NCBI GenBank assembly: GCA_964496425.1
Contig: CAZBZO010000005.1
Location: forward strand, 10,015 to 74,014
Origin: an uncultured Candidatus Saccharibacteria bacterium
GTDB lineage: Bacteria; Patescibacteriota; Minisyncoccia; Phycocordibacterales; UBA9973
Direction: 5' to 3'
DNA length: 64,000 nucleotides
The position numbers were made by a program, and so were the translations under genes. Below the pieces are notes generated by a model, which saw nothing but the letters and a program-made list of their open reading frames with translations, was not told the DNA's origin and did not search any database. Of the stretch, positions 15,448-25,901 are shown piece after piece. Positions within the stretch are counted from its first letter, which is position 1, and the number at the start of each line of letters is the position of its first letter.

Positions 15448-16158
15448 TTAATGCTCGTGGGGAATAAGTATCAAAATTGCCGAGAGAAGAATAGCTCCAA
15501 CGACAAATCCCCAAATGGTATTTTGGGTCCATTTCGTATGGCGAATGTCGGTACTCACTTTCCAAGAAATGATTCCGGCTGAAAGCGCAATGAGAATACT
15601 TTCAAGTGCCGCTCCATTTTTCAGGAAAAGTGCTAAGAGTACGCTTAAAGAAACAAAAAATGAAATGAAAAGTGCACGCTTTGGCTTGATACCGCTATCC
15701 ACCAGGAGTACTTGCTGTCCGCTTTGTTGGACCATTTGATGACCGATGATGCCGGCAAGGGAGGTCAGTCCCACTCCGATACTAAAACCAAATCCCGAAA
15801 TGATAGCGATACCGTCGACGATATTGTGGAGGAAATCAGAAAGAAGGATCCGCCAGGTACTGGCTTTGGTGTGATGATGTTTTCCCTCGGCACTTTCGTG
15901 GTGGTGGTGGAATTCTTTGAAATACACGCCGATCAAAATACTTATGATGAGCCCGGCAAGCGCCCAGAGGGAAGCAGGAAGTACGCCACGTTGCTCAATG
16001 GCTTCCCGGAGAAGTAAAATAACGAGCGTCGCATAGACACCGAGACCAAAGCCGCGGACTGCGCTTTTTTGGAAAAATTCTCGATTGCGAGGCAAAAGCA
16101 ACACCAAAGCCATTGGTACCAGTGCCGCAGCAAGTAAATATAAAATAATATGTGTCAC
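15448..16158 (-). CDS. zupT: ZIP-family metal (zinc) transporter
   Basis: Eight-TM topology, His-rich loop HHHHESAEGKHHH, and conserved HNIVDGIAI and GHQ motifs of the ZIP family. Confidence 0.8.
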   Translation of the reverse strand: MTHIILYLLAAALVPMALVLLLPRNREFFQKSAVRGFGLGVYATLVILLLREAIEQRGVLPASLWALAGLIISILIGVYFKEFHHHHESAEGKHHHTKASTWRILLSDFLHNIVDGIAIISGFGFSIGVGLTSLAGIIGHQMVQQSGQQVLLVDSGIKPKRALFISFFVSLSVLLALFLKNGAALESILIALSAGIISWKVSTDIRHTKWTQNTIWGFVVGAILLSAILILIPHEH

Positions 16159-16307
16159 CAGATTAGTATAAACATTATTGGAGAAGTCACAAGTATGGGG
16201 TATAAATAGGGAGTTTGGAATTACAAATTAGTAATTACTAATTACAAATTGAAATAATAACTACTAGGACGAGTATTCATTTGTAATTTTTAATTCAGCA
16301 TTATTTT

Positions 16308-17027
16308 ATGCGCATTGCATTACTTATATCTGGTAGTGGAACAACAGCCGAAGCGATCATCAAAGCTTGCACGAGCGGGCGGCTTTCGGGTGTCGAGCCA
16401 GCTCTTGTGATCGCCAGCCGTGCCGACAGTGGCGGTATTGTCCGAGCCAAAGAAGCCGGCATAAAAGAGGAAGATATCGTAGTCATTGATCCAAAAACAT
16501 TTGCGGGCAGTGAAGAGTTCGGTCAGGCGATTATTGTTGAATGCAAAAAAAGAAATGTGGATTTTGTCGGCCAGTACGGCTGGATGATAAAAACACCAGA
16601 AAATGTGATTCGTGAATATGAAGGCATGATGACCAACCAACATCCGGGACCGCTTGATCCTGGCCGTGCAGACTTCGGCGGAGTAGGAATGTACGGTATG
16701 CGAGTACATCAGGCACGACTGTGCTTTGTGAAGAAAACTGATAGGGAATATTGGAGTGAAGCCACGGCCCAACGAGTGGCAGTGCATTTCGATGAAGGTG
16801 CTGTGGTTCACAGCAAGCGTGTAGAGATACTTCCTGACGATACTGCCGAAACACTTGCCGCTCGCATGCTTCCGATCGAACATGAAGTGCAGATTGAAAC
16901 CTTACAAATGTTTGCAAATAAAGCCGTAAAGGAAATTATTCGCGATACACCATTCGTCTTCCCTGGGGAGGAAGGAATTCTTAAAGTATGTAAAAAAGAA
17001 GCTGTTCAGTTATATCCAAATGGGTAG
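16308..17027 (+). CDS. purN: Phosphoribosylglycinamide formyltransferase-like (PurN-type formyltransferase)
   Basis: N-terminus MRIALLISGSGTTAEAIIKA resembles the PurN start. N-x-H (NQHPGPL) and a downstream Asp are present. Divergent, 239 aa. Confidence 0.55.
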   Translation: MRIALLISGSGTTAEAIIKACTSGRLSGVEPALVIASRADSGGIVRAKEAGIKEEDIVVIDPKTFAGSEEFGQAIIVECKKRNVDFVGQYGWMIKTPENVIREYEGMMTNQHPGPLDPGRADFGGVGMYGMRVHQARLCFVKKTDREYWSEATAQRVAVHFDEGAVVHSKRVEILPDDTAETLAARMLPIEHEVQIETLQMFANKAVKEIIRDTPFVFPGEEGILKVCKKEAVQLYPNG

Positions 17028-17029
17028 AA

Positions 17030-17070
17030 TTTTATAAAAAAAGCGACCTTAAGTTGATAAGGTCGCTGAT
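17030..17070. terminator. Bidirectional terminator hairpin (GCGACCTTA-AGTTGA-TAAGGTCGC) with flanking A/T runs
   Basis: Perfect 9-bp stem. The reverse-complement side is followed by TTTTTTTT. Confidence 0.7.
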
Positions 17071-17088
17071 TGTGACTAATTTTAGTCT

Positions 17089-17502
17089 TTATTTTTGAGA
17101 AACTACTACCAGGAGTTTATTTTGTGTACGGTTTTTTTTCTTTGCTTCATGACCATCTTGAGTCAGAAATTCTATGCTTTCTTCAAGCATTTCTTTCATT
17201 TGTGGCCCCGCGAAAGCTATCATGTAGGAATGCGCAGGAAGCTCTATAAATTTACCAGTACTTTTACCATTTTTTATACCTAAATCTTCGGTACCTATAC
17301 CAAATACATTCCCCAAAAATTCTGGATTTGTTTTCTCGTATCCTTCAGTCTGAGCCTTTTCAGAATTCTCCATTACAGCTTGACGGATATTTGTTTCATT
17401 TACGCCATAGTGATTTAGTTTGATTAATAAATAGCCCGTAAGCCATTTTTTCTCGTTCCGGTCATGTTTTTCGGAGAGTGAACCAAGATTTATAGTTTTC
17501 AT
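17089..17502 (-). CDS. Hypothetical protein
   Basis: 137-aa ORF. No motif recognised. Confidence 0.45.
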   Translation of the reverse strand: MKTINLGSLSEKHDRNEKKWLTGYLLIKLNHYGVNETNIRQAVMENSEKAQTEGYEKTNPEFLGNVFGIGTEDLGIKNGKSTGKFIELPAHSYMIAFAGPQMKEMLEESIEFLTQDGHEAKKKNRTQNKLLVVVSQK

Positions 17503-17592
17503 TTTTTTAAATTATTTTTTCGATATTAACACTAAATTTTAAATAAGTCAAATTTTCTACTATTTTAAATTTAGTTGTGTTACTATTCCGGC

Positions 17593-18879
17593 ATGAATGA
17601 AAAGCTTACGGTTTTGCTCGTAGGAGGGGGAGGTAGGGAGCATGCGCTCGCCAAAAAAATCTCCGAATCCCCACGACTCGGTAAGCTCTATATTGCTCCT
17701 GGGAACCCTGGCACTGCCACCCTAGGCGAAAATATTCCTATCAAGGCCACAGCTCTCAATGAGCTTGGCGACTTTGCAGAACAAAATCATGTTGATCTCA
17801 CTATTGTCGGCCCCGACGATCCGCTTGCGGAAGGTATCGTCGATCTCTTTAAAGCTCGCGGACTTCGAATATTTGGCCCAGAAAAAAGTGCAGCAAAACT
17901 TGAAAGTTCAAAAGCTTTTGCTAAAGACTTCATGAATGCCCATGCCATACCGACAGCATCGTTTGAAGTGTTCAATGAATACGATAAAGCTCGTGCCTAT
18001 ATCGAAACGCAGATTTTCCCGCTGGTGGTGAAAGCCAGTGGTTTGGCACTTGGCAAAGGCGTCTTCATTTGCAAAACACTCGAGGTGGCTGAAGAGGCAC
18101 TCAAAAAAATAATGATTGACCAGGCATTTGGAGAAGCTGGAAGTCAGGTAGTGATCGAAGAATATTTGGACGGTATGGAAATTTCTACGCATGCATTTTG
18201 TGACGGTAAAACATTTCGCATGTTTCCAACCTCGCAAGATCATAAGCGAGTACTGGACGGTGATCAAGGTGAAAATACTGGTGGTATGGGTACGATCGCA
18301 CCGCTTCCGTTTGTAAGTGACGCTGAAATCGAAATTATCGCTGAAAGTGTTGTTCGACCTACTCTCGCAGGTATGAAAGAAGTAGGGGCGCTGTATACCG
18401 GTGTGCTGTATCCTGGGCTGATGATGACTACCCGTGGCCCGCGCGTACTTGAATTCAACGCTCGCTTCGGTGATCCAGAAACACAAGTCTATATGCGGCT
18501 TTTGAAGACTGATATTTTAGATATTGTCGATGCGTGTATAGATGGTACGCTTTCTGAGGTTGCTATTGAATGGTATCCAGGTTTTGCTGCCTGTCTGGTC
18601 CTTGCATCAGGCGGCTATCCAGGAGTGTATGCAAAAGGAAAAAAAATTACCGGTATTTCGAAAGCGGAAGCATTACCGGAAGTGGTGGTGTTTCATGCTG
18701 GGACGAGTATGGAAAAAGGCAAACTTGTTACTTCAGGCGGTCGCGTGCTTGGAGTCACCGCTGTAGCTGATACACTAGAAGAAGCCTTGGCGCGAGCGTA
18801 TCAAGCAGCAGCGCTCATACATTTTGACGACATGCAGTACCGGAGAGATATAGGGAAACGGGCTTTGGACAGTAAGTAG
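17593..18879 (+). CDS. purD: Phosphoribosylamine--glycine ligase
   Basis: LTVLLVGGGGREHALAKK N-terminus and ATP-grasp domain. Start chosen at MNEKL (17593). Confidence 0.92.
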   Translation: MNEKLTVLLVGGGGREHALAKKISESPRLGKLYIAPGNPGTATLGENIPIKATALNELGDFAEQNHVDLTIVGPDDPLAEGIVDLFKARGLRIFGPEKSAAKLESSKAFAKDFMNAHAIPTASFEVFNEYDKARAYIETQIFPLVVKASGLALGKGVFICKTLEVAEEALKKIMIDQAFGEAGSQVVIEEYLDGMEISTHAFCDGKTFRMFPTSQDHKRVLDGDQGENTGGMGTIAPLPFVSDAEIEIIAESVVRPTLAGMKEVGALYTGVLYPGLMMTTRGPRVLEFNARFGDPETQVYMRLLKTDILDIVDACIDGTLSEVAIEWYPGFAACLVLASGGYPGVYAKGKKITGISKAEALPEVVVFHAGTSMEKGKLVTSGGRVLGVTAVADTLEEALARAYQAAALIHFDDMQYRRDIGKRALDSK

Positions 18880-18934
18880 TGAGTAGTAAATAGTAAGTAG
18901 GGGCGCAAATTTCTAATAGTAAACTTAGAAAAGA

Positions 18935-20173
18935 ATGAAAATAATTTTTTACGAAACAAAAAAAGTACAAAATCTCTGGCCGATCGTAGCTACTCGGCCG
19001 GCTTCAGAAATATTTTGCGGTGGCGCGACGCTTTGCGATCTAGTCGGCCGGCAATTTCCTAAAATTTCACCCTCGTTTATCGTTCGTCCATATCTTGAGT
19101 CTCTTGCGTACGAACGCCATCCACGCTCGGCTCGAATAGGTAAAATTGACGATGATGTATTATTTTTAAATACAGCCATGGTGCCTGATATCAGCCTATT
19201 TGTAGAGCTTGCTCGTTCTTTCAAGGGGAAAAGTGTACGGTTTGTAAATGGCTCTCAAGTGATCGGTGCTTACCTCACAAAAAAAGATGCATTGGCAGTG
19301 TCGGAGAAGCTGGAGAAGCTTACGTTTGGCACAGTTGAACGCACTATCAAAAGTCTAGACCTACTCGAACGCAAAACTGACGCCCGTCTTTTTGAGTTTG
19401 GGTATCAAGTCGTGTCAGAAAATCAGCAGATACTTTCTTCCAATATTTCAATTCTCAAAAAAGGTCTTCGTGAATCTCGCCGCGGAGTGTATGTCGGCAA
19501 AAATGTCCGCGTCGCACAAAACGTATTCTTTGATACAAAGCATGGGCAGATTATTCTTGAAGAAAATGTTGTAGTAAAACCATTTGCGTATTTGAAAGGC
19601 CCGATCTATGTCGGACGTGATTCAGTCATCAATGAATTTTCAAGTATCAAAGAATATACGGCACTTGGGCCGGTATGTAAAGTTGGTGGTGAAATCGAAG
19701 CCTCTGTGATTCAAGGCTATTCCAACAAACAACACTACGGCGGACTTTTTCATAGCTATGTCGGCCGCTGGGTCAATATGGGTGCTGGTACTAATACGTC
19801 GAATTTAAAAAATACCTATGGCACGGTGCGGGTCCTCGGTGAGGATACCGGGGAACAATTCTTCGGCGCCATCATCGCTGACTATGTGAAGACAGCTATT
19901 AACACTGCTATTTATACAGGGAAAGTGATTGGCCCCTCTGCGCACATCTATGGAGCAGTGACGTCTGATGTTCCGGGTTTTGCAAGCTATGTGTCGGTCG
20001 GCTCGCAGTACGAGCTACCACTGCCGCTTGCAGAGAAGATTCAGAAAGCTATGGCGAAACGAAGAGACATCCCATATAATCAAACAGATGAAAAGTTACT
20101 TCTTCATCTGTTTAATGAAACAGCAACGGATCGTAAAAATGCTAAAGTCAAAAAAGGGAAGTTGCAATTCTGA
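18935..20173 (+). CDS. Putative sugar nucleotidyltransferase with C-terminal left-handed beta-helix (GlmU-like alternative family)
   Basis: N-terminus MKIIFYE..LWPIVATRPASEI and long hexapeptide-repeat region (VGKNVRV..VVVKPFAYLKGPIYVGRDSVI..). Confidence 0.5.
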   Translation: MKIIFYETKKVQNLWPIVATRPASEIFCGGATLCDLVGRQFPKISPSFIVRPYLESLAYERHPRSARIGKIDDDVLFLNTAMVPDISLFVELARSFKGKSVRFVNGSQVIGAYLTKKDALAVSEKLEKLTFGTVERTIKSLDLLERKTDARLFEFGYQVVSENQQILSSNISILKKGLRESRRGVYVGKNVRVAQNVFFDTKHGQIILEENVVVKPFAYLKGPIYVGRDSVINEFSSIKEYTALGPVCKVGGEIEASVIQGYSNKQHYGGLFHSYVGRWVNMGAGTNTSNLKNTYGTVRVLGEDTGEQFFGAIIADYVKTAINTAIYTGKVIGPSAHIYGAVTSDVPGFASYVSVGSQYELPLPLAEKIQKAMAKRRDIPYNQTDEKLLLHLFNETATDRKNAKVKKGKLQF

Positions 20174-20214
20174 TAAACTCTAAAAACTAAACTCTAAGCT
20201 CTAAATAAGTTCAA

Positions 20215-20577
20215 ATGATAGAAGATCAAAACACGCAAAAGAAATACGATCTTGATGAGCGAACTTTTATTTTTGCGAAAGATGTGAGAGAGTTTGCTAG
20301 AACATTACCAAGAGATATATATGTTATAGATGACATAAAACAGTTTATTCGATCCTCAGGATCAGTCGGGGCAAATTATATTGAAGCAAGCGAAGCATTC
20401 AGTAAGAAAGATTTTTTAATGAGAATAAAAATTTGTCGAAAAGAAGCAAAAGAAACTTGTTATTGGCTGAAACTCCTAGAGATCACAGATGCTTCACTTT
20501 CGAATAATCGTGATAGATTATTACAAGAAGCAACTGAGCTTATGAAAATTTTTGGTTCAATCGTTTCAAAAAGTTGA
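20215..20577 (+). CDS. Four-helix-bundle protein of the 23S rRNA intervening-sequence protein family
   Basis: 120 aa. Characteristic SGSVGANYIEA..SKKDFLMRIKICRKEAKETCYWLKLL pattern. Confidence 0.75.
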   Translation: MIEDQNTQKKYDLDERTFIFAKDVREFARTLPRDIYVIDDIKQFIRSSGSVGANYIEASEAFSKKDFLMRIKICRKEAKETCYWLKLLEITDASLSNNRDRLLQEATELMKIFGSIVSKS

Positions 20578-20635
20578 GTTTTGAATTTAGTATTTATTAG
20601 GGTGTAGAGTTTAGTATTTAGAGCTTATAAAATTT

Positions 20636-21580
20636 ATGTCAAAAATTCTTATTATGGGCGCGTGCGGACAAATCGGAGTCGAGCTCACACTTGCACTTCG
20701 AAAAATTCACGGCGGTGAAAATGTGTTAGCTATCGATATTCGCGAAGAGCATCCGCTCTTGGTAGGCACTGGACCGTATGGCAAACTCGATGCCATGGAT
20801 GCCGAAGCGACACGTGCGCTCGTAAAAAAAGAAGGCATTACCGAAATATATCTCCTCGCTGCGCTGCTTTCTGCGACAGGGGAGAAAGACCCGAAGCTTG
20901 CGTGGGATCTCAATATGGGAAGTTTGCGACAAATCCTTGAGCTCGGGGTGGAAGAAAAATTGAAAATATTCTGGCCAAGTTCCATCGCTATTTTTGGTCC
21001 CACAACGCCGCGCGACAATACTCCACAGAAAACTATTATTGAACCATCGACCATGTACGGTATCACTAAGTACGCTGGTGAGCTTTTGTGTCAGTATTAC
21101 AATCGGCGTTGGGGACTTGATGTGCGAAGCGTGCGATACCCAGGGCTTATCAGCTGGAAAACTCCACCAGGCGGCGGCACGACCGACTATGCTGTGGAAA
21201 TATTTTACGAAGCCATCCAAAATGGAAAATACAGTTGTTTCCTTTCAGAAAATACCTATCTACCGATGATGTATATGGATGATGCCATCCGGGCGACGAT
21301 CGAGCTTATGCAAGCACCGGCGGAAAAGATACACACACATATGTCCTACAATCTCTCTGCGATTAGCTTTTCACCGAAAGAGGTAGCTCTGGAAATAAAA
21401 AAAGATATTCCAAATTTTGAAATATCGTATGCGCCCGACCATCGCCAAGCTATTGCCGACTCTTGGCCTGCGTCAATCGATGACAGTGTGGCGCGCGCCG
21501 AATGGGGCTGGAAGCCGGAGTACGATCTTCCAAAAATGACCGCGGATATGCTCGCGCATTTGAAAGAAAAATTAAGATAA
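20636..21580 (+). CDS. tdh: NAD-dependent epimerase/dehydratase-fold L-threonine 3-dehydrogenase (GalE-like TDH)
   Basis: ILIMGACGQIGVELTLALR Rossmann start and YGITKYAGE catalytic YxxxK. Lies in the same insert as a kbl homologue (about 1.9 kb downstream, opposite-strand genes in between). Confidence 0.65.
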   Translation: MSKILIMGACGQIGVELTLALRKIHGGENVLAIDIREEHPLLVGTGPYGKLDAMDAEATRALVKKEGITEIYLLAALLSATGEKDPKLAWDLNMGSLRQILELGVEEKLKIFWPSSIAIFGPTTPRDNTPQKTIIEPSTMYGITKYAGELLCQYYNRRWGLDVRSVRYPGLISWKTPPGGGTTDYAVEIFYEAIQNGKYSCFLSENTYLPMMYMDDAIRATIELMQAPAEKIHTHMSYNLSAISFSPKEVALEIKKDIPNFEISYAPDHRQAIADSWPASIDDSVARAEWGWKPEYDLPKMTADMLAHLKEKLR

Positions 21581-21595
21581 CTATTTTAATTGAAA

Positions 21596-21630
21596 AAGAG
21601 CAATCGATTTTGTTGATTGCTCTTTTTATT
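21596..21630. terminator. Hairpin terminator AGAGCAATC..GATTGCTCT followed by TTTTTATT
   Basis: 9-bp stem then U-run, after the tdh stop. Convergent with the minus-strand gene. Confidence 0.6.
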
Positions 21631-21645
21631 ACTTTTGCTTTTTAT

Positions 21646-22035
21646 TCATACTCCGGATAAATGCCCTTCCATAAAATCATGTTGGATCTCTTCTGCGAAA
21701 CTTATTTTTCCAAAACCGGATCGGCTGCTTAAGCTTGCATAAAAATACAGAGGTTCATTAAGCACTATTATTTGTTCTCTGAAAATAATTTCTTTGCACT
21801 TCCCAGTAAAAATCATTGTGAAGTGCTCCTTCTTCGACCAAGTCGAATTTTGTGTAAAAATTTTTAAAGTGATTTCCTGGGAGAGGGTAAGATCAAAAAT
21901 TTGATCACCGCCCACATACTGGAAACCACGTTGGAGTTCCTGTAGGCTTTCACGAGTGTTGGTGTGTGCGAAATCCATGATAATTGTTTTTACAGCAGCT
22001 CCGAGAGCCTGATGAATGCTGAGTAAGTCTTTCAT
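21646..22035 (-). CDS. Hypothetical protein
   Basis: 129-aa ORF. No family recognised. Confidence 0.4.
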   Translation of the reverse strand: MKDLLSIHQALGAAVKTIIMDFAHTNTRESLQELQRGFQYVGGDQIFDLTLSQEITLKIFTQNSTWSKKEHFTMIFTGKCKEIIFREQIIVLNEPLYFYASLSSRSGFGKISFAEEIQHDFMEGHLSGV

Positions 22036-22115
22036 AGTGGAGTAGTTTTTAAATTGTTTATATTATAATAACACTAAAATTTATTATAGTCAAATTTGAT
22101 ATAAAAAAATATGCC

Positions 22116-22141
22116 CACCGGTTGATTCCAGTGGGCGGTTG
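22116..22141 (-). terminator. Hairpin GCCCACCGG-TTGATT-CCAGTGGGC followed by a T-run on the minus strand
   Basis: 8-bp stem including a G-U pair. The minus-strand RNA is followed by AUAUUUUUUUAUAUC. Downstream of the 22156-22749 gene. Confidence 0.55.
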
Positions 22142-22155
22142 CAAAATAAGATTTA

Positions 22156-22749
22156 TCATGCGGTATTTTTGATTGCTGAAAGATTTTTTTTCTTGTCTGG
22201 AAAGAATGATTCCTTACTGAAAACCTTGCTGGCATTTGTGCCTGGTTTTGTGACAGTAATTTCTTTTCCCCCATCACTGATTTTGTTACTGATTTTGCAA
22301 GAATAACCAAGTTTCTTGAGTCCTTCTTCAAAAGCCGTAAGAGCGTTTTCATTGCCAATACATTTTTTTTCCAGCTCATTAATTGTAGTCCAAAAATCTT
22401 TTTGTGGTGTAACAGAATCTGGTTTCGTAATCGGTGGATCAATATTTACAGGCAGTGCTTGCTCAAGAGATGGTTGAGCTAATGCGGTAACTTTCTTCAG
22501 CTCGGAAAATCGTTTTACGACTTCTTCCACGACGGTATCCAGACGAGTACCCAGTTGCTCCCAATCTTTTGGGTTTTTTATCTTAAAACAATAAAGGTAA
22601 ATTGCCCCGGCAACTATAAATATGAGGCCCATTCCCATAAAGTCCATGTAATGGAGAAATAAGCCGGTGAATGAAGCTATTAGACCAATAATCATTATGA
22701 CTACGGGTACTACGGTAAAGATGAGCAAATCAAGTTTGTTTTTCTTCAT
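22156..22749 (-). CDS. Membrane protein, hypothetical (N-terminal 2 TM helices plus soluble domain)
   Basis: 197 aa. Hydrophobic N-terminus, charged C-terminal domain. Confidence 0.5.
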   Translation of the reverse strand: MKKNKLDLLIFTVVPVVIMIIGLIASFTGLFLHYMDFMGMGLIFIVAGAIYLYCFKIKNPKDWEQLGTRLDTVVEEVVKRFSELKKVTALAQPSLEQALPVNIDPPITKPDSVTPQKDFWTTINELEKKCIGNENALTAFEEGLKKLGYSCKISNKISDGGKEITVTKPGTNASKVFSKESFFPDKKKNLSAIKNTA

Positions 22750-22870
22750 ATGTTCGGATTTTGAAAGGTTTAGAATTTTGCTTACAATACCAACAATTTA
22801 CGTTATAGTCAAATTTTTTTTGAGATTGCAAGTACCTATTAAAAAGAAAGGTGAGTTTAAAAAAAATTAG

Positions 22871-22898
22871 CCCGACGGTTGATCCGACGGGCTTTTTC
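22871..22898. terminator. Bidirectional hairpin GCCCGACGG-TTGATC-CGACGGGC flanked by A-run and T-run
   Basis: Stem-loop with T-run on plus and, via upstream AAAAAAAA, on minus. Downstream of the minus gene 22922-23413. Confidence 0.55.
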
Positions 22899-22921
22899 AT
22901 ATAAATACCTTTTGATTTACT

Positions 22922-23413
22922 TTACTGAAGATTTGCAAAGACCTCTTTTGCCCGGGTAAAATAAGATTCGGGTAGTGTTTTACTTTTACCCCAAATATCT
23001 TTTCCGTATGACCAATATAAGCCAGTGAACCTGTCTTCATCAACGGTTATCAACTTTCCGGTCTGGTCAACGATGTATGTACAGATCTTTTCATTTCTGT
23101 CATTGTATTCGTGAATAAATAATAACTTGTGCTTTCGGAAGCCTTTTGTATATTTCTCTACATACATCTGAAAAGCAACATGACAATCCTCACTGATCTG
23201 GATATAGTTGACCTTTATACGGAAGCGTTTGTCACCATAGATTTTCGTTACATACTGCACTTTTTGGCCTGATCCGCAGTTGCAGATATTATTGTTCTGG
23301 AATTGCTTTATTATTTTGCAGACCTGGTCTGCTGTGGTGATTTGGAAGCTTTCCTGTGCAACAACTACGTGAGAGACGAGGGTCGCAAAAAAGACTATAA
23401 ATAACTTTTTCAT
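22922..23413 (-). CDS. Secreted Cys-containing hypothetical protein (signal peptide)
   Basis: MKKLFIVFFATLVSHVVVAQ signal peptide. Track ORF extends to 23437. Confidence 0.5.
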   Translation of the reverse strand: MKKLFIVFFATLVSHVVVAQESFQITTADQVCKIIKQFQNNNICNCGSGQKVQYVTKIYGDKRFRIKVNYIQISEDCHVAFQMYVEKYTKGFRKHKLLFIHEYNDRNEKICTYIVDQTGKLITVDEDRFTGLYWSYGKDIWGKSKTLPESYFTRAKEVFANLQ

Positions 23414-23516
23414 TTTCAAGGAGGGCATTTGAGACACCTCGGGAGAATTTAATCATAAAATTTGTTTACTGTCAAGGCATTTCGATTTAAACTTTATTCT
23501 GTTAAAGTTAGCACAT

Positions 23517-24740
23517 ATGTATTCGTCTGAATTTATTAAGAATATTGAAAAAGAGCTTGAAGCTTTGAAGCAAGCAGGGAAGCTCAAGGTAGAGAGGGAG
23601 CTTGCAAGTGCGCAGGGGCCGGAGGTGGAGCTTGCTGGAAAACCTGTGCTTATGTTTGCTTCAAATAATTATCTTGGTTTGGGAAACCATCCAGAAATCC
23701 TTGCGGCAGCTGAAAAGGGAATGAAAGAATATGGCTACGGTTTAAGCTCGGTGCGCTTTCTTTCTGGCACCCAGACGATTCACCGACAGCTTGAGCAAAA
23801 GCTCGCCGCGTTTCTCGGTACCGAAGATGTGATACTCTACTCGACCAATTTCATGGCCAACCTCGGCTTCTTTGCGAGCATCGTAAATGAAGGAATGGGA
23901 AGCACAGAGTGGAAAGATGTGATCTACAGTGACGAGCTCAATCATGCGTCCATCATCGATGCCTTCAAACTTTGTAAAAAAGAAAATCTTGAGAAACGGA
24001 TTTACAAACACGGAAATCTCGAGGAACTTGAGAATTTTTTGAAAGCAGATGAAGCTAGTAATTATAGAAATAAAATTATTGTGACTGATGGTATTTTTAG
24101 TATGGAGGGAAGTATGGCTGATCTGCCAAAGCTTGTAGAGCTCGCGGAAAAATATCAAGCACTTCTATTTGTCGACGACGCACACGCTGTCGGCGTGCTC
24201 GGAGCAACCGGTGCTGGTACTCCCGAGCGTCTCGGAGTGAAGGGAAAAATTGATGTGTATTCGGGTACCTTCGGCAAAGCGCTCGGTGGGGCAGTCGGTG
24301 GCTATATTGCCGGGAAAAAATCTCTCACTGAATTTCTCCGCCAAAAATCCCGCACCTATATGTTTTCAAATACCGTGCCGCCATCTGTTGTCATTGCTTC
24401 TATGAAAGCGCTCGACATGCTCCGCGAAAAACCAGAATTACTCAAGAATCTGAAAGATAACAGTGCGTATTTTCGAGAAAAAGTTGCAGCGCTCGGATTT
24501 ACTCTGATCCCAGGCGAGCATGCCATTGTGCCTATCATGCTCGGTGATGCCAAAGTGGCACAGGATATGAGCCGAGCATTACTTGCCGAGGGACTCTATG
24601 TGGTGGGACTATGGTTTCCGGTGGTCCCAGAAGGATCGGCACGCCTTCGCTTCCAAATATCTGCTGCGCATACCAAAGAGCATCTTGATCGTGCGATCTC
24701 TATACTTGGAAAAATCGGAAAGGAAATGAAAATTATTTAG
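23517..24740 (+). CDS. kbl: 2-amino-3-ketobutyrate CoA ligase (glycine C-acetyltransferase), class-II PLP aminotransferase
   Basis: 407 aa. SNNYLGL, DELNHASIIDA, DDAHAVGVLG, and the PLP-lysine region TFGKALGG. Confidence 0.85.
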   Translation: MYSSEFIKNIEKELEALKQAGKLKVERELASAQGPEVELAGKPVLMFASNNYLGLGNHPEILAAAEKGMKEYGYGLSSVRFLSGTQTIHRQLEQKLAAFLGTEDVILYSTNFMANLGFFASIVNEGMGSTEWKDVIYSDELNHASIIDAFKLCKKENLEKRIYKHGNLEELENFLKADEASNYRNKIIVTDGIFSMEGSMADLPKLVELAEKYQALLFVDDAHAVGVLGATGAGTPERLGVKGKIDVYSGTFGKALGGAVGGYIAGKKSLTEFLRQKSRTYMFSNTVPPSVVIASMKALDMLREKPELLKNLKDNSAYFREKVAALGFTLIPGEHAIVPIMLGDAKVAQDMSRALLAEGLYVVGLWFPVVPEGSARLRFQISAAHTKEHLDRAISILGKIGKEMKII

Positions 24741-24776
24741 CATTCTCTATTTACTATTTACTACTAACTATTTACT

Positions 24777-25901
24777 ATGCAAAAAATCGGCATTGTCGGC
24801 GGAGGACAACTTGGGCGTATGCTTGTTGAAGCTGCAGATCAGCTTCACTTTGAGACGATTGTCCTTGATCCGACACCACGCGCTCCTGCTGGGCAGGTTG
24901 CAACCGAGCAGATCATAAAAAGTTTCAAAGATCCTGAAGCGATTCGTGAGCTCGCCGATCGCGTGGATTTTCTGACCTTTGAAATTGAGCAAGTGCATGC
25001 CGAAGTGCTGGAAGAGATTGCAAATGATGGCAAGCCGGTCAATCCATCGCCTTCCACATTGAAAATAATCAAAGACAAATTTGAACAGAAAGCGTTTTTG
25101 CAAAACGCTGATATTCCGGTGACAGATTTTGCATTGATCGAAACCAAGCACGATGTCTGGGAGCAAGCCAAAATCTTCGGCTACCCATTTCTTTTGAAAG
25201 CTCGTTTTGATGCCTACGATGGTCGCGGCAATGCGCTCATCAAAAGCGAAGACCAAATCGATTTTGCGTACGAGCATCTTTCCAAAAGCCCACTCTATGT
25301 TGAGCGGTTTGTACCGTTTGTCAAAGAGCTCTCGGCGGTGGTGGTGCGCGGAATGGACGGCGATATAAGATCATATCCGATCGTTGAGACGATTCATCGC
25401 AACAACATTTGCCATGAAGTCTTTGCGCCTGCACCTGTGGCAGAAGATGTGCGTGAGCGTGCTGAAGCACTTGGTCGCCAAACTCTGGAGCATTTGGGTG
25501 GAGTAGGAGTGTATGCGATAGAAATGTTTCTCACAGAAAATGGAAAAATCTTGGTCAATGAAATCGCGCCGCGCGTCCACAACTCGGGCCATCATACGAT
25601 TGAAGCCTGCGCCACGAGCCAATTTGAAAATCATATCCGTGCTATCACAAGCATGCCGCTTGGGAGTACTGATATGATAGTACCGAGGGCGGTGATGGTG
25701 AATATTTTGGGGGATCGGAGTGGGGAAGTAAAGCCTGAAGGTATAGAAGAGGCCGAAGCTTTGGGTGGAGTGGCAGTGCACATGTATGGTAAGATGGAAA
25801 CGCGACCGGAGCGGAAAATGGGGCATATTACAGCTATTGGGAGTACTCTCGAAGAAGTTCAAGCCAAGGCGCGGAAGGCGAGGAGTTTGATTACAATTTA
25901 G
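24777..25901 (+). CDS. purK: N5-carboxyaminoimidazole ribonucleotide synthase
   Basis: MQKIGIVGGGQLGRM ATP-grasp N-terminus. 374 aa. Confidence 0.9.
   Translation: MQKIGIVGGGQLGRMLVEAADQLHFETIVLDPTPRAPAGQVATEQIIKSFKDPEAIRELADRVDFLTFEIEQVHAEVLEEIANDGKPVNPSPSTLKIIKDKFEQKAFLQNADIPVTDFALIETKHDVWEQAKIFGYPFLLKARFDAYDGRGNALIKSEDQIDFAYEHLSKSPLYVERFVPFVKELSAVVVRGMDGDIRSYPIVETIHRNNICHEVFAPAPVAEDVRERAEALGRQTLEHLGGVGVYAIEMFLTENGKILVNEIAPRVHNSGHHTIEACATSQFENHIRAITSMPLGSTDMIVPRAVMVNILGDRSGEVKPEGIEEAEALGGVAVHMYGKMETRPERKMGHITAIGSTLEEVQAKARKARSLITI

What the first reader, a model, noticed from the sequence alone, without database searches (positions are those of the whole stretch)
20174..20630. Four-helix-bundle (23S rRNA IVS-protein family) gene sits inside an inverted-repeat cassette outside any rRNA
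The 120-aa ORF belongs to the family normally encoded inside 23S rRNA intervening sequences. Here it lies between protein-coding genes. It is flanked by imperfect inverted repeats: AAACTCTAAAAACTAAACTCTAA at 20174-20196 against GTAGAGTTTAGTATTTAGAGCTT at 20604-20626, about 20/23 complementary. This is reminiscent of the RNase III-processed stem that brackets rRNA IVSs. It suggests an IVS-like cassette that moved, or can move, to non-rRNA sites.
Basis: partly seen in the sequence, partly recalled or inferred. Interest (0 to 1): 0.5.

Follow-up and report, generated by a model that had tools for sequence, protein, structure and literature searches.

The report
Hairpin-bracketed four-helix-bundle gene cassette
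A small gene of the "rRNA intervening-sequence protein" family sits here in a ~465-base unit bracketed by two mirror-image arrays of 7-base repeats; the same unit recurs between ordinary genes in more than 15 bacterial phyla, so it looks like a widespread, seemingly undescribed, mobile cassette.

Summary
The 120-aa ORF (20215-20577) is a PF05635/TIGR02436 four-helix-bundle protein. Its flanks are inverted repeats (39 nt, 79% complementary) that close a ~40-bp stem (arms-only fold z = -6.9).

Each arm is an array of about 4.5 heptamers (TAAAYTC type).

- Eighty relatives (55-67% identity) from more than 15 phyla share the layout: heptamer array, ~10 nt, ATG, ORF, inverted array, ~500 nt in all.
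- They sit in short spacers, co-oriented with both neighbours in 58 of 68 loci. None lies within 4 kb of rRNA.
- The variable heptamer base covaries between the two arms (50 of 56 loci).
- Other PF05635 subfamilies carry other heptamers.
- ORF-less ~150-nt hairpins with the same arm sequence are common in metagenomes.
- A related genome (~90% DNA identity) has the two flanking genes 26 nt apart with no cassette.
- The cassette is 30.5% GC against 43% for the window.

I read it as a horizontally mobile, promoterless cassette, of which rRNA intervening sequences are a special case. RNase III processing of the stem and binding of the arms by the protein are inferred, not shown. Arm mismatches show no G·U bias, so a DNA-level role stays open. 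I found no paper linking heptamer arrays to this family.

The parts
20166..20214 (+). Left arm. Heptamer array TAAACTC TAAAAAC TAAACTC TAAGCTC TAAATAA (20174-20208), then GTTCAA and the ATG. The inverted repeat starts inside the last codons and stop codon of the upstream gene. No Shine-Dalgarno-like sequence.
   Evidence: I1, D9; TRF: period 7, 4.6 copies, 20174-20205.
20215..20577 (+). 120-aa four-helix-bundle protein gene (PF05635 / TIGR02436; Avd-like fold).
   Evidence: AF2 model pLDDT 90.8 with four helices. Foldseek hits: 2RLD, 2GSC, 4DWL (Avd), 8UBE. PDB profile hit to 2RLD, E 2.5e-18.
20578..20635 (+). Right arm, the reverse complement of the left arm. Read on the - strand: TAAGCTC TAAATAC TAAACTC TACACCC TAATAAA TACTAAA TTCAAAAC. 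It ends directly at the ATG of the downstream gene.
   Evidence: (I1-I3, I8, D1).
18935..20173 (+). Upstream host gene, alternative GlmU-like (TIGR03991). Its stop codon abuts the left arm.
   Evidence: ~90% DNA identity to L006 up to 20169.
20636..21580 (+). Downstream host gene, NAD-dependent epimerase / L-threonine dehydrogenase-like. Its start codon abuts the right arm. The only terminator-like hairpin of the unit follows at 21593-21627.
   Evidence: Homology to L006 resumes exactly at 20636.

Best explanation
Window 20166-20635 is one copy of a pan-bacterial, horizontally mobile, promoterless gene cassette.

Anatomy: an Avd-like four-helix-bundle gene (PF05635) bracketed by two inverted arrays of about 4.5 heptamer repeats. 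It is inserted in the sense orientation in the spacer between two co-transcribed host genes.

SHOWN:
- The anatomy, and its conservation in 80 relatives from more than 15 phyla.
- Covariation of the two arms.
- Subfamily-specific heptamers.
- ORF-less derivatives carrying the same arm sequence.
- An empty site in a related genome.
- Low GC of the cassette.
- Strong co-orientation with neighbouring genes.
- No sigma-70-like promoter or terminator of its own.
- Absence from rRNA neighbourhoods.

INFERRED:
(1) The cassette is transcribed by read-through from the host operon.
(2) In the transcript the arms pair into a ~40-bp imperfect stem with the ORF as the loop, and RNase III cuts this stem. 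This is documented for IVSs of the same protein family in 23S rRNA. Cleavage would free the ORF RNA and separate the flanking cistrons.
(3) The protein, probably a pentamer like BT_0352, Xcc0516 and Avd, binds the heptamer arrays of its own cassette and of ORF-less hairpins, and so serves maintenance or spread.

How the DNA moves is unknown. rRNA IVSs that encode this protein would be the special case in which such a cassette landed in an rRNA helix.
For: Anatomy and statistics in the window.

Empty site: L006 (Tdh-like protein 97% identical, DNA ~90%) has glmU-like and Tdh-like genes 26 nt apart. Homology stops at 20169 and resumes at 20636. The more distant orthologous loci L007 and L008 are also empty.

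Family-wide architecture: in 77 relatives the flank inverted-repeat score has median 21, against 8 for 360 control genes in the same loci (p 1e-31). 84% of relatives exceed the control 95th percentile. Flank periodicity peaks at 7 (0.64 against 0.39).

Array and element size: arrays peak at 4.5 copies, 31-32 nt. Element length has median 497 nt.

Arm covariation: the heptamer type (CG, TA or CA) agrees between arms in 50 of 56 loci with no CG/TA discordance (chi-square p 2.5e-15). Same-locus arm pairs are more complementary than cross-locus pairs (p 5e-11).

Other PF05635 subfamilies carry other heptamers: GGAAAGC, CTAAGGG, AATTAGC, CTAGGTT, AATTCAA.

Orientation: 67/73 upstream neighbours, 67/74 downstream neighbours and 58/68 both neighbours are on the same strand. 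Gaps have medians of 62 and 80 nt.

No + strand promoter-like site between 19557 and 21012, and no terminator before 21593.

Horizontal spread: protein identity is 62.3% within a phylum and 60.3% between phyla. Cassette GC is 30.5% against 43% for the window.

ORF-less hairpins of 130-190 nt with the same arm motif: 67 of 81 sites.

Protein fold.

RNase III processing of IVS stems, and the old idea that the ORF serves mobility: PMC4990558. PF05635 genes wedged between cas genes: PMC3936711.
Against: - Arm mismatches show no wobble bias: 109 G·T against 114 A·C. Complementarity may therefore be kept at the DNA level, or each arm may be kept for its own sequence, rather than for an RNA stem.
- There are no transcript data and no RNase III test.
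- Identical proteins were found only at one locus per lineage, and ORF GC tracks host GC (r 0.90). Movement is therefore rare, not ongoing.
- No target-site duplication is visible. In the window the whole 26-nt spacer is replaced rather than interrupted. At 90% identity a diverged spacer, or a deletion in the relative, cannot be excluded.
- Heptamer arrays also occur at other spacers of this window without such an ORF, so they are not exclusive to the cassette.
- Binding of the arms by the protein is pure inference.
Confidence: 0.6

Rival explanations
1. DNA transposon-like element. The heptamer arrays are terminal inverted repeats made of iterated protein-binding sites. The 4HB protein, or a host or trans-acting enzyme it recruits, mobilises both the ORF-bearing (~500 nt) and the ORF-less (~150 nt) versions as DNA, like an autonomous element and its MITEs. 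RNA pairing of the arms would be incidental.
For: - No G·U over A·C bias in arm mismatches.
- Abundant ORF-less hairpins with the same arm sequence.
- Heptamer sequence differs between protein subfamilies.
- Sharp array-length optimum of 4.5 units.
- Insertion polymorphisms of both an ORF-bearing and an ORF-less element between the window and L006.
Against: - A 120-aa helical bundle has no known catalytic motif. Its only characterised homologue, Avd, is an RNA- and RT-binding accessory protein.
- No target-site duplication is seen.
- One copy per 64-kb window, and single loci per lineage.
- No transposase or recombinase lies next to the cassette (gene table).
- The 92% co-orientation with host genes would need a secondary explanation.
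Confidence: 0.25
2. Ordinary accessory gene in a genome whose spacers generally carry heptamer arrays. The arrays would be a host-level translation or RNA-processing signal, like the TAACTGA repeats found directly upstream of start codons. The inverted repeat would then arise simply because the arrays before and after any gene resemble each other.
For: - Other ~4.5-copy heptamer arrays lie in neighbouring spacers of the window: 16219-16250, 18871-18900 and 24747-24778. The last abuts the purK ATG.
- In the 80 loci, 122 period-7 arrays lie away from the 4HB gene.
- Precedent for heptamer repeats ending 1 nt before start codons: PMC4679880.
Against: - Control genes in the same loci have no flank inverted repeats: median score 8 against 21.
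- The arm sequence and the order of heptamer variants travel with the ORF across phyla.
- The arms are absent, together with the ORF, from the empty site.
- Each array in the window has a different unit.
Confidence: 0.1
3. A chance inverted repeat in AT-rich, low-complexity spacer DNA around an unremarkable small ORF.
For: The spacers are AT-rich (cassette 30.5% GC). Many weak inverted repeats are listed in the region.
Against: - Arms-only fold z -6.9, with 0 of 200 shuffles as stable.
- 98.9th percentile of control genes.
- The same architecture in 84% of 77 relatives.
- Covariation of arm type.
Confidence: 0.02

Closest known systems
ORF-containing intervening sequences (IVS) of 23S rRNA (Leptospira, Coxiella burnetii; 'S23p' ORF)
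   Same: Same protein family (PF05635). Similar size: the Coxiella IVS is 428-444 nt, this cassette is 462-469 nt. Terminal inverted repeats form a long stem around the ORF. No promoter of its own, and sense orientation in a host transcript. Sporadic distribution suggesting horizontal transfer. ORF-less short versions exist. Source: PMC4990558.
   Different: This one is not in an rRNA gene, and neither are any of the 80 relatives. Heptamer-repeat structure of the arms has not been reported for IVSs in the papers I could read. RNase III excision is shown for IVSs and only inferred here.
Avd, accessory variability determinant of diversity-generating retroelements (PDB 4DWL; DGR RNP 8UBE/8UB8)
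   Same: Four-helix-bundle fold: TM-score 0.68-0.73 to 4DWL and 0.66-0.72 to 8UBE. Small basic protein of ~110-130 aa. The related crystal entries 2RLD and 2GSC each contain five chains.
   Different: Only ~17% identity. No reverse transcriptase gene within 10 kb (gene table), and no template or variable repeat pair. Avd genes are not described as bracketed by heptamer arrays.
Correia/NEMIS elements of Neisseria and other intergenic MITE-like palindromes (ERIC, RUP). Comparison from my own knowledge.
   Same: Works like them: short inverted-repeat elements inserted in operon spacers and co-transcribed with host genes. For NEMIS, the hairpins are cut by RNase III. The ORF-less 130-190-nt hairpins found here are the closest analogue.
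   Different: Those elements have no ORF-bearing partner of this kind, have target-site duplications (TA for Correia), are multi-copy within one genome, and are restricted to narrow taxa. Here the arms are heptamer arrays and the range spans phyla.
Intergenic heptamer direct repeats: TAACTGA repeats of Beggiatoaceae, Cyanobacteria and Bacteroidetes (PMC4679880); cyanobacterial STRR heptamers (from memory)
   Same: Tandem 7-nt repeats of 2-6 copies. They are intergenic, in 'forward' orientation, and often end within a few nt of a start codon. Their patchy cross-phylum distribution suggests horizontal transfer. Their function is unexplained.
   Different: Those are described as direct repeats upstream of diverse genes, with only one inverted case in 170 sets. 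They have not been linked to PF05635 or to hairpin cassettes.

Membership tests
PF05635 / TIGR02436 (23S rRNA-intervening sequence protein; four helix bundle protein) | Scores above the curated cut-off of the family HMMs | tested here: met
   PF05635: 52.3 bits against cut-off 33.8. TIGR02436: 69.5 bits against cut-off 24.
PF05635 / TIGR02436 | Four-helix-bundle fold like BT_0352 (2RLD) and Xcc0516 (2GSC) | tested here: met
   AF2 pLDDT 90.8, helices 14-29, 35-59, 64-87 and 93-119. Foldseek to 2RLD: E 7e-5, TM 0.72-0.81. 2GSC is also hit.
PF05635 / TIGR02436 | Conserved motif GxxRxxxSxxxNxxE (PMC3936711, citing the Xcc0516 work) | tested here: inconclusive
   R46, S50, N54 and E57 are present and invariant in the subfamily. 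The first position is an invariant Q43 instead of G.
rRNA intervening sequence (IVS) element | Inserted in a helix of a 23S (or 16S) rRNA gene | tested here: not met
   No rRNA in the window. The cassette lies between two protein genes. None of the 80 relatives is near rRNA.
rRNA intervening sequence (IVS) element | Terminal inverted repeats that form a long stem enclosing the element | tested here: met
   39-nt arms at 79% complementarity. A ~40-bp stem at -36.3 kcal/mol, z -6.9.
rRNA intervening sequence (IVS) element | Excised from the transcript by RNase III without religation | not testable with these tools
   Needs RNA end mapping. Shown for Coxiella in PMC4990558.
Diversity-generating retroelement (Avd component) | Adjacent reverse transcriptase and a template/variable repeat pair | tested here: not met
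   The gene table of the identical contig, 10 kb on each side, has no RT family. The repeats found are the cassette arms only.
Classical transposon / MITE | Terminal inverted repeats | tested here: met
Classical transposon / MITE | Target-site duplication flanking the element | tested here: not met
   No direct repeat is visible outside the arms in 44 loci inspected. In the window the 26-nt spacer of the empty site is replaced.
Classical transposon / MITE | Transposase (autonomous) or many near-identical copies per genome (MITE) | tested here: not met
   No transposase family next to the cassette. One copy in the 64-kb window. Identical proteins occur at one locus only. The whole genome was not available.
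Integron gene cassette | A single attC at the 3' end, an array next to an integron integrase, and attI | tested here: not met
   Arms lie on both sides of the ORF. No integrase in the locus. The cassette is single and embedded in a purine / threonine-catabolism gene block.
Intergenic heptamer tandem repeats (TAACTGA / STRR type) | Tandem 7-nt units, intergenic, forward orientation close to a start codon | tested here: met
   TRF: period 7, 4.6 copies, 20174-20205, ending 9 nt before the ATG. Family-wide, the distance from array end to ATG has median 12.5 nt.
Known anti-phage defence, phage protein or RNA families | Match to PADLOC, PHROGs or Rfam models | tested here: not met
   No hits. No relative in IMG/VR. 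Two weak hits in GenBank phages.

The most novel reading that the evidence does not exclude
PF05635 genes with their inverted 4.5 x 7-nt arrays, together with the ORF-less ~150-nt hairpins that share the same arms, form a previously unrecognised pan-bacterial class of mobile element. An Avd-like pentamer would recognise its own heptamer arrays, roughly one subunit per heptamer, and promote their spread or retention. The classical rRNA intervening sequences, and at least part of the unexplained intergenic heptamer repeats (STRR / TAACTGA type), would then be manifestations of this one system.
Probability: 0.3. Interest if true: 0.85.

Novelty: new variant of a known kind. Interest (0 to 1): 0.68.

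Why it matters
The function of the 'IVS protein' and the origin of rRNA intervening sequences have been open since the early 1990s. The family is large: 11,495 clusters at 50% identity. It is annotated only as 'four helix bundle protein'.

Three points make the question testable:
- These genes come as a fixed cassette with inverted heptamer arrays.
- The cassettes sit in operon spacers rather than in rRNA.
- They have ORF-less derivatives.

The resulting tests are direct: does the protein bind its heptamers, and does RNase III cut the stem.

The finding also offers an explanation for some of the enigmatic intergenic heptamer repeats. It matters for annotation too, because such cassettes split operons, including CRISPR-Cas loci (PMC3936711). 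Finally, it gives a non-DGR context for the Avd fold.

Tried and rejected
1. A second copy of the ORF or arms in the window: none.
2. rRNA context: no rRNA in the window. blastn of the E. coli rrn operon against L009-L088 and L090-L186 gave nothing. This genome's own rRNA could not be reached.
3. Recent transposition, tested by looking up identical proteins in different contexts. P0027 (18 contigs) and P0053 (4 contigs) always sit at the same locus. The three identical copies on Nostoc flagelliforme plasmids lie in duplicated plasmid backbone, not at independent insertions.
4. Phage vector: no relative in IMG/VR and two weak GenBank phage hits. No PHROG or PADLOC family.
5. RNA-level selection through a G·U against A·C mismatch asymmetry: no bias, 109 against 114.
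6. Orientation of ORF-less hairpins relative to host genes. This is uninformative, because a palindromic element reads the same arm first on both strands.
7. Target-site duplications: none seen.
8. Rfam: no family for the cassette or the ORF-less hairpins.
9. Literature: six searches, including literal repeat strings, found no paper linking PF05635 with heptamer repeats. Ralph & McClelland 1993 (PMC47033) is not held.
10. I first took L006 for a sister strain. DNA identity is only ~90%, so the empty site is in a related species.

Full report
**1. The observation**

The ORF at 20215-20577 (+) encodes 120 aa. It matches PF05635 (23S_rRNA_IVP; E 7.6e-14, above the curated cut-off) and TIGR02436 'four helix bundle protein' (E 2.5e-19).

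It lies between an alternative GlmU-like gene (18935-20173) and an NAD-epimerase/Tdh-like gene (20636-21580), all on the + strand.

The left one starts at 20175, one base later than stated. The repeat is in fact longer: 20166-20204 against 20597-20635, 39 nt at 79%, with a perfect 13-mer core.

- The minimum-energy fold of 20160-20645 is closed by this stem (z -2.9).
- The two arms joined by a tetraloop fold to -36.3 kcal/mol. Dinucleotide shuffles give -16.9 +/- 2.8 (z -6.9).
- The window holds no rRNA, only tRNA-Asn. It holds no second PF05635 ORF and no second copy of the arms.

**2. What the arms are**

The left arm reads TAAACTC TAAAAAC TAAACTC TAAGCTC TAAATAA GTTCAA ATG. It is a tandem array of 7-nt units (TRF: period 7, 4.6 copies). 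It starts at the stop codon of the upstream gene and ends 9 nt before the ATG.

The right arm is the mirror image and ends at the ATG of the downstream gene. The cassette therefore fills the whole intergenic space. No Shine-Dalgarno-like sequence precedes the ORF.

The consensus scan finds no + strand promoter between 19557 and 21012. It finds no terminator until 21593-21627, after the Tdh-like gene.

**3. Host and empty site**

The neighbours' closest homologues are from Patescibacteria of the Paceibacteria/Nomurabacteria type. The identical locus occurs in several Logan assemblies and in GCA_013558355.1.

A relative, L006 from GCA_013558375.1, has a Tdh-like protein 97% identical and flanking DNA about 90% identical. 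It keeps the order purN-purD-glmU-like-Tdh-like, but the last two genes are separated by only 26 nt (TTACTACTAGTAAGCGAAATCACATC). Homology to the window stops at 20169 and resumes exactly at 20636.

Two more distant orthologous loci, L007 and L008, are also empty.

The cassette has 30.5% GC against 43% for the window. That places it in the lowest 0.2% of windows of equal size.

The simplest reading is a gain in the window's lineage. At 90% identity a loss in the relative cannot be strictly excluded. The spacer is replaced rather than interrupted.

**4. Relatives**

The protein has thousands of homologues. The nearest outside its own locus are only 66-70% identical, and they come from Patescibacteria, Chlorobi, Desulfonatronum and others.

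A profile search of 1.84 billion cluster representatives finds 11,495 at E <= 1e-3 and 212 at E <= 1e-30.

A scan of one genome per species returned 80 loci, with protein identity of 55-67%. They come from Patescibacteria, Planctomycetota, Verrucomicrobiota, Desulfobacterota, Gammaproteobacteria, Chloroflexota, Bacteroidota, Armatimonadota, Omnitrophota, KSB1 and others.

Protein identity is 62.3% within phyla and 60.3% between phyla. The nearest neighbour lies in another phylum for 39 of 71 proteins. ORF GC is about 8 points below the host locus but tracks it (r 0.90).

Together these results point to horizontal spread followed by long residence.

**5. The architecture is a family trait**

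Printing the flanks of all loci shows the same design almost everywhere. Upstream there are 3-6 heptamers of the type CGAAATY, CTAAAYY or CAAATAA. These are followed by roughly AAACAAATTCAA and the ATG. Downstream lies the reverse complement.

| Measure | 4HB relatives | Control genes in the same loci |
|---|---|---|
| Flank inverted-repeat score, median | 21 (n = 77) | 8 (n = 360; 95th percentile 13) |
| Share above the control 95th percentile | 84% | - |
| Flank self-similarity at period 7 | 0.64 | 0.39 |

The difference in flank score has p 1e-31.

Arrays next to the ORF peak sharply at 4.5 copies, 31-32 nt (25 of 48 upstream and 28 of 52 downstream).

The element, measured from outermost pair to outermost pair, has a median of 497 nt (IQR 474-535). 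The window copy is 469 nt.

The variable base of the heptamer covaries between the arms. Of 56 typed loci, 24 are CG/CG, 18 TA/TA and 8 CA/CA, and none is CG/TA (p 2.5e-15). Same-locus arms are more complementary than arms from different loci (p 5e-11).

**6. Context**

None of the 80 loci has similarity to the rrn operon within 4 kb.

The 4HB gene is on the same strand as its upstream neighbour in 67 of 73 cases. The same holds for its downstream neighbour in 67 of 74 cases, and for both in 58 of 68. The gaps have medians of 62 and 80 nt.

The cassette is thus a sense-oriented passenger of operon spacers. This agrees with the published observation of such genes wedged between cmr3 and cmr2 and in other cas loci (PMC3936711).

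In CPR bacteria the family has been seen inside 16S and 23S rRNA insertions. There homing-endonuclease families account for 159 of 177 (16S) and 274 of 278 (23S) annotated ORFs, so this family is a small minority (PMC11270868).

**7. Beyond this subfamily**

More distant PF05635 genes in the same loci have the same bracket but different heptamers:
- GGAAAGC / GCTTTCC and GCTAAGG / CCCTTAG in L041 (PF05635 E 1e-36 and 2e-23).
- AATTAGC in L023 and CTAGGTT in L087.
- (AATTCAA)4 / (TTTTGAA)4 around the RefSeq 'four helix bundle protein' of the Nostoc flagelliforme plasmids.

One small GIY-YIG gene (L044) is bracketed in the same way.

Of 81 sites, only one adjoins a 4HB ORF and 67 have none within 650 nt. 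Where a clear partner arm could be aligned (29 of 59 testable sites), the site is an ORF-less hairpin of 130-190 nt. L090 shows such mini-hairpins on both sides of a 4HB gene.

This pairing of ORF-bearing and ORF-less forms mirrors the long and short IVSs of rRNA, and autonomous against non-autonomous transposons.

**8. The protein**

AlphaFold2 gives a confident four-helix bundle (pLDDT 90.8).

The best structural matches are BT_0352 (2RLD, 'S23 ribosomal protein family'), Xcc0516 (2GSC), Avd of the Bordetella phage DGR (4DWL; TM 0.68-0.73) and Avd in the DGR ribonucleoprotein (8UBE, 8UB8). The 2RLD and 2GSC entries contain five chains.

No RT gene lies within 10 kb. There is no PADLOC or PHROG match, no relative in IMG/VR, and almost none in GenBank phages. 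Plasmid hits are mostly Nostocales.

**9. Mechanism**

Shown: the anatomy, conservation, covariation, orientation, empty site, ORF-less derivatives and lack of own signals.

Inferred:
- Read-through transcription from the host operon.
- Pairing of the arms into a stem of about 40 bp.
- RNase III cleavage, as demonstrated for IVSs of this family in Coxiella and reported for Leptospira (PMC4990558).
- Binding of the arrays by the protein.

A direct test for RNA-level selection was negative. Transition mismatches in the arms are 109 G·T against 114 A·C. A DNA-level role, with the arms as terminal repeats made of iterated binding sites, therefore remains a serious rival.

Several results argue against a classical transposon. 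No target-site duplication is seen. Identical proteins always sit at one locus. No enzyme gene accompanies the cassette.

The rival that heptamer arrays are merely a general spacer feature of such genomes has some support, because other arrays exist in the window. It fails on the control-gene comparison and on the empty site.

**10. Known or new**

IVS elements with this ORF, their terminal repeats, their RNase III processing and the idea that they are mobile are all known (PMC4990558). The fold and the Avd relationship are known. Intergenic heptamer repeats close to start codons are known but unexplained (PMC4679880).

Four things appear in no paper I could search and in no Rfam family:
- The fixed cassette design with inverted arrays of ~4.5 heptamers.
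- Its subfamily-specific repeats.
- Its pan-phylum occurrence in operon spacers.
- Its ORF-less derivatives.

The library lacks most subscription journals, so prior description elsewhere cannot be excluded. I therefore file it as a new variant of a known kind. There is a substantial chance (~0.3) that it is a distinct, unrecognised class of mobile element.

**11. Verdict**

But rRNA is not its normal home, and the direction 'from rRNA' is unsupported. Interest 0.68.

Noticed in passing
window 18864-18900 and 24747-24783: A second, outer pair of inverted heptamer arrays: AGTAAGT-type against CTATTTA-type, 37 nt, 86% complementary, 5846 nt apart. It is the best inverted repeat in 16150-24850. 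It brackets the block glmU-like + 4HB cassette + Tdh-like + three hypothetical (-) ORFs + kbl, which interrupts the purine genes between purD and purK. The right array runs straight into the purK ATG (24777) with no Shine-Dalgarno sequence. The left array is conserved in L006 (3672-3702).
   Followed up: partly
window 16217-16307: A 91-nt insertion directly in front of the purN start codon relative to L006. It consists of a heptamer array (AATTACW x 4.6), a loop and a partial inverse (ATTTGTAATTTTTAATT), with no ORF. It is a second heptamer-array indel between the two genomes. The predicted fold is only weakly better than shuffles (z -1.9).
   Followed up: partly
L107-L186 (e.g. L107 2500-2640): ORF-less hairpins of 130-190 nt carry the same arm sequence as the 4HB cassettes (AAATCCGAAATTCGAATATCGAAATCCGAAACAAA...). 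They are far more frequent among exact motif matches in metagenomes than ORF-bearing cassettes: 67 against 1 of 81 sites. Some keep the ATG and the first codons of the lost ORF.
   Followed up: partly
L006 4975-5000 (empty site): The 26-nt spacer of the empty site contains a small palindrome, TTACTA-C-TAGTAA, of the same heptamer type as the outer arrays (AGTAAGT). It also contains one canonical CGAAATC unit. This may be a footprint or a preferred target, or it may be chance.
   Followed up: no
L009-L088 (TRF summary): Tandem repeats of period 7 dominate these loci: 238 arrays, against 19 of period 6 and 51 of period 8, with further peaks at 14 and 21. Arrays far from any 4HB gene also peak at 4.5 copies (40 of 135), often as inverted pairs a few hundred nt apart.
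   Followed up: partly
L062 4566-5239; L086 4481-5046: Downstream of the 4HB gene there are tandem series of arm blocks (TTTCGGA arrays every ~55/109 nt or every 132 nt). In L086 they include truncated copies of the ORF start (MTETPGDRQYGLEDR). This looks like local amplification of cassette ends.
   Followed up: no
L044 2548-3247; L090 1989-2279; L050 4001-4853: Other small cargo in or near such brackets. A 104-aa GIY-YIG gene lies between inverted heptamer arrays (25 nt, 84%) in L044. A 96-aa GIY-YIG gene lies two genes upstream of a 4HB gene in L090, without an inverted repeat. In L050 a NOV_C (restriction-endonuclease-like) ORF shares the bracket with the 4HB gene.
   Followed up: partly
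window 17089-17502 (-): A 137-aa ORF on the opposite strand between purN and purD. It has no Pfam match and is absent from L006, where purN and purD are adjacent. This is another indel between the two genomes.
   Followed up: no
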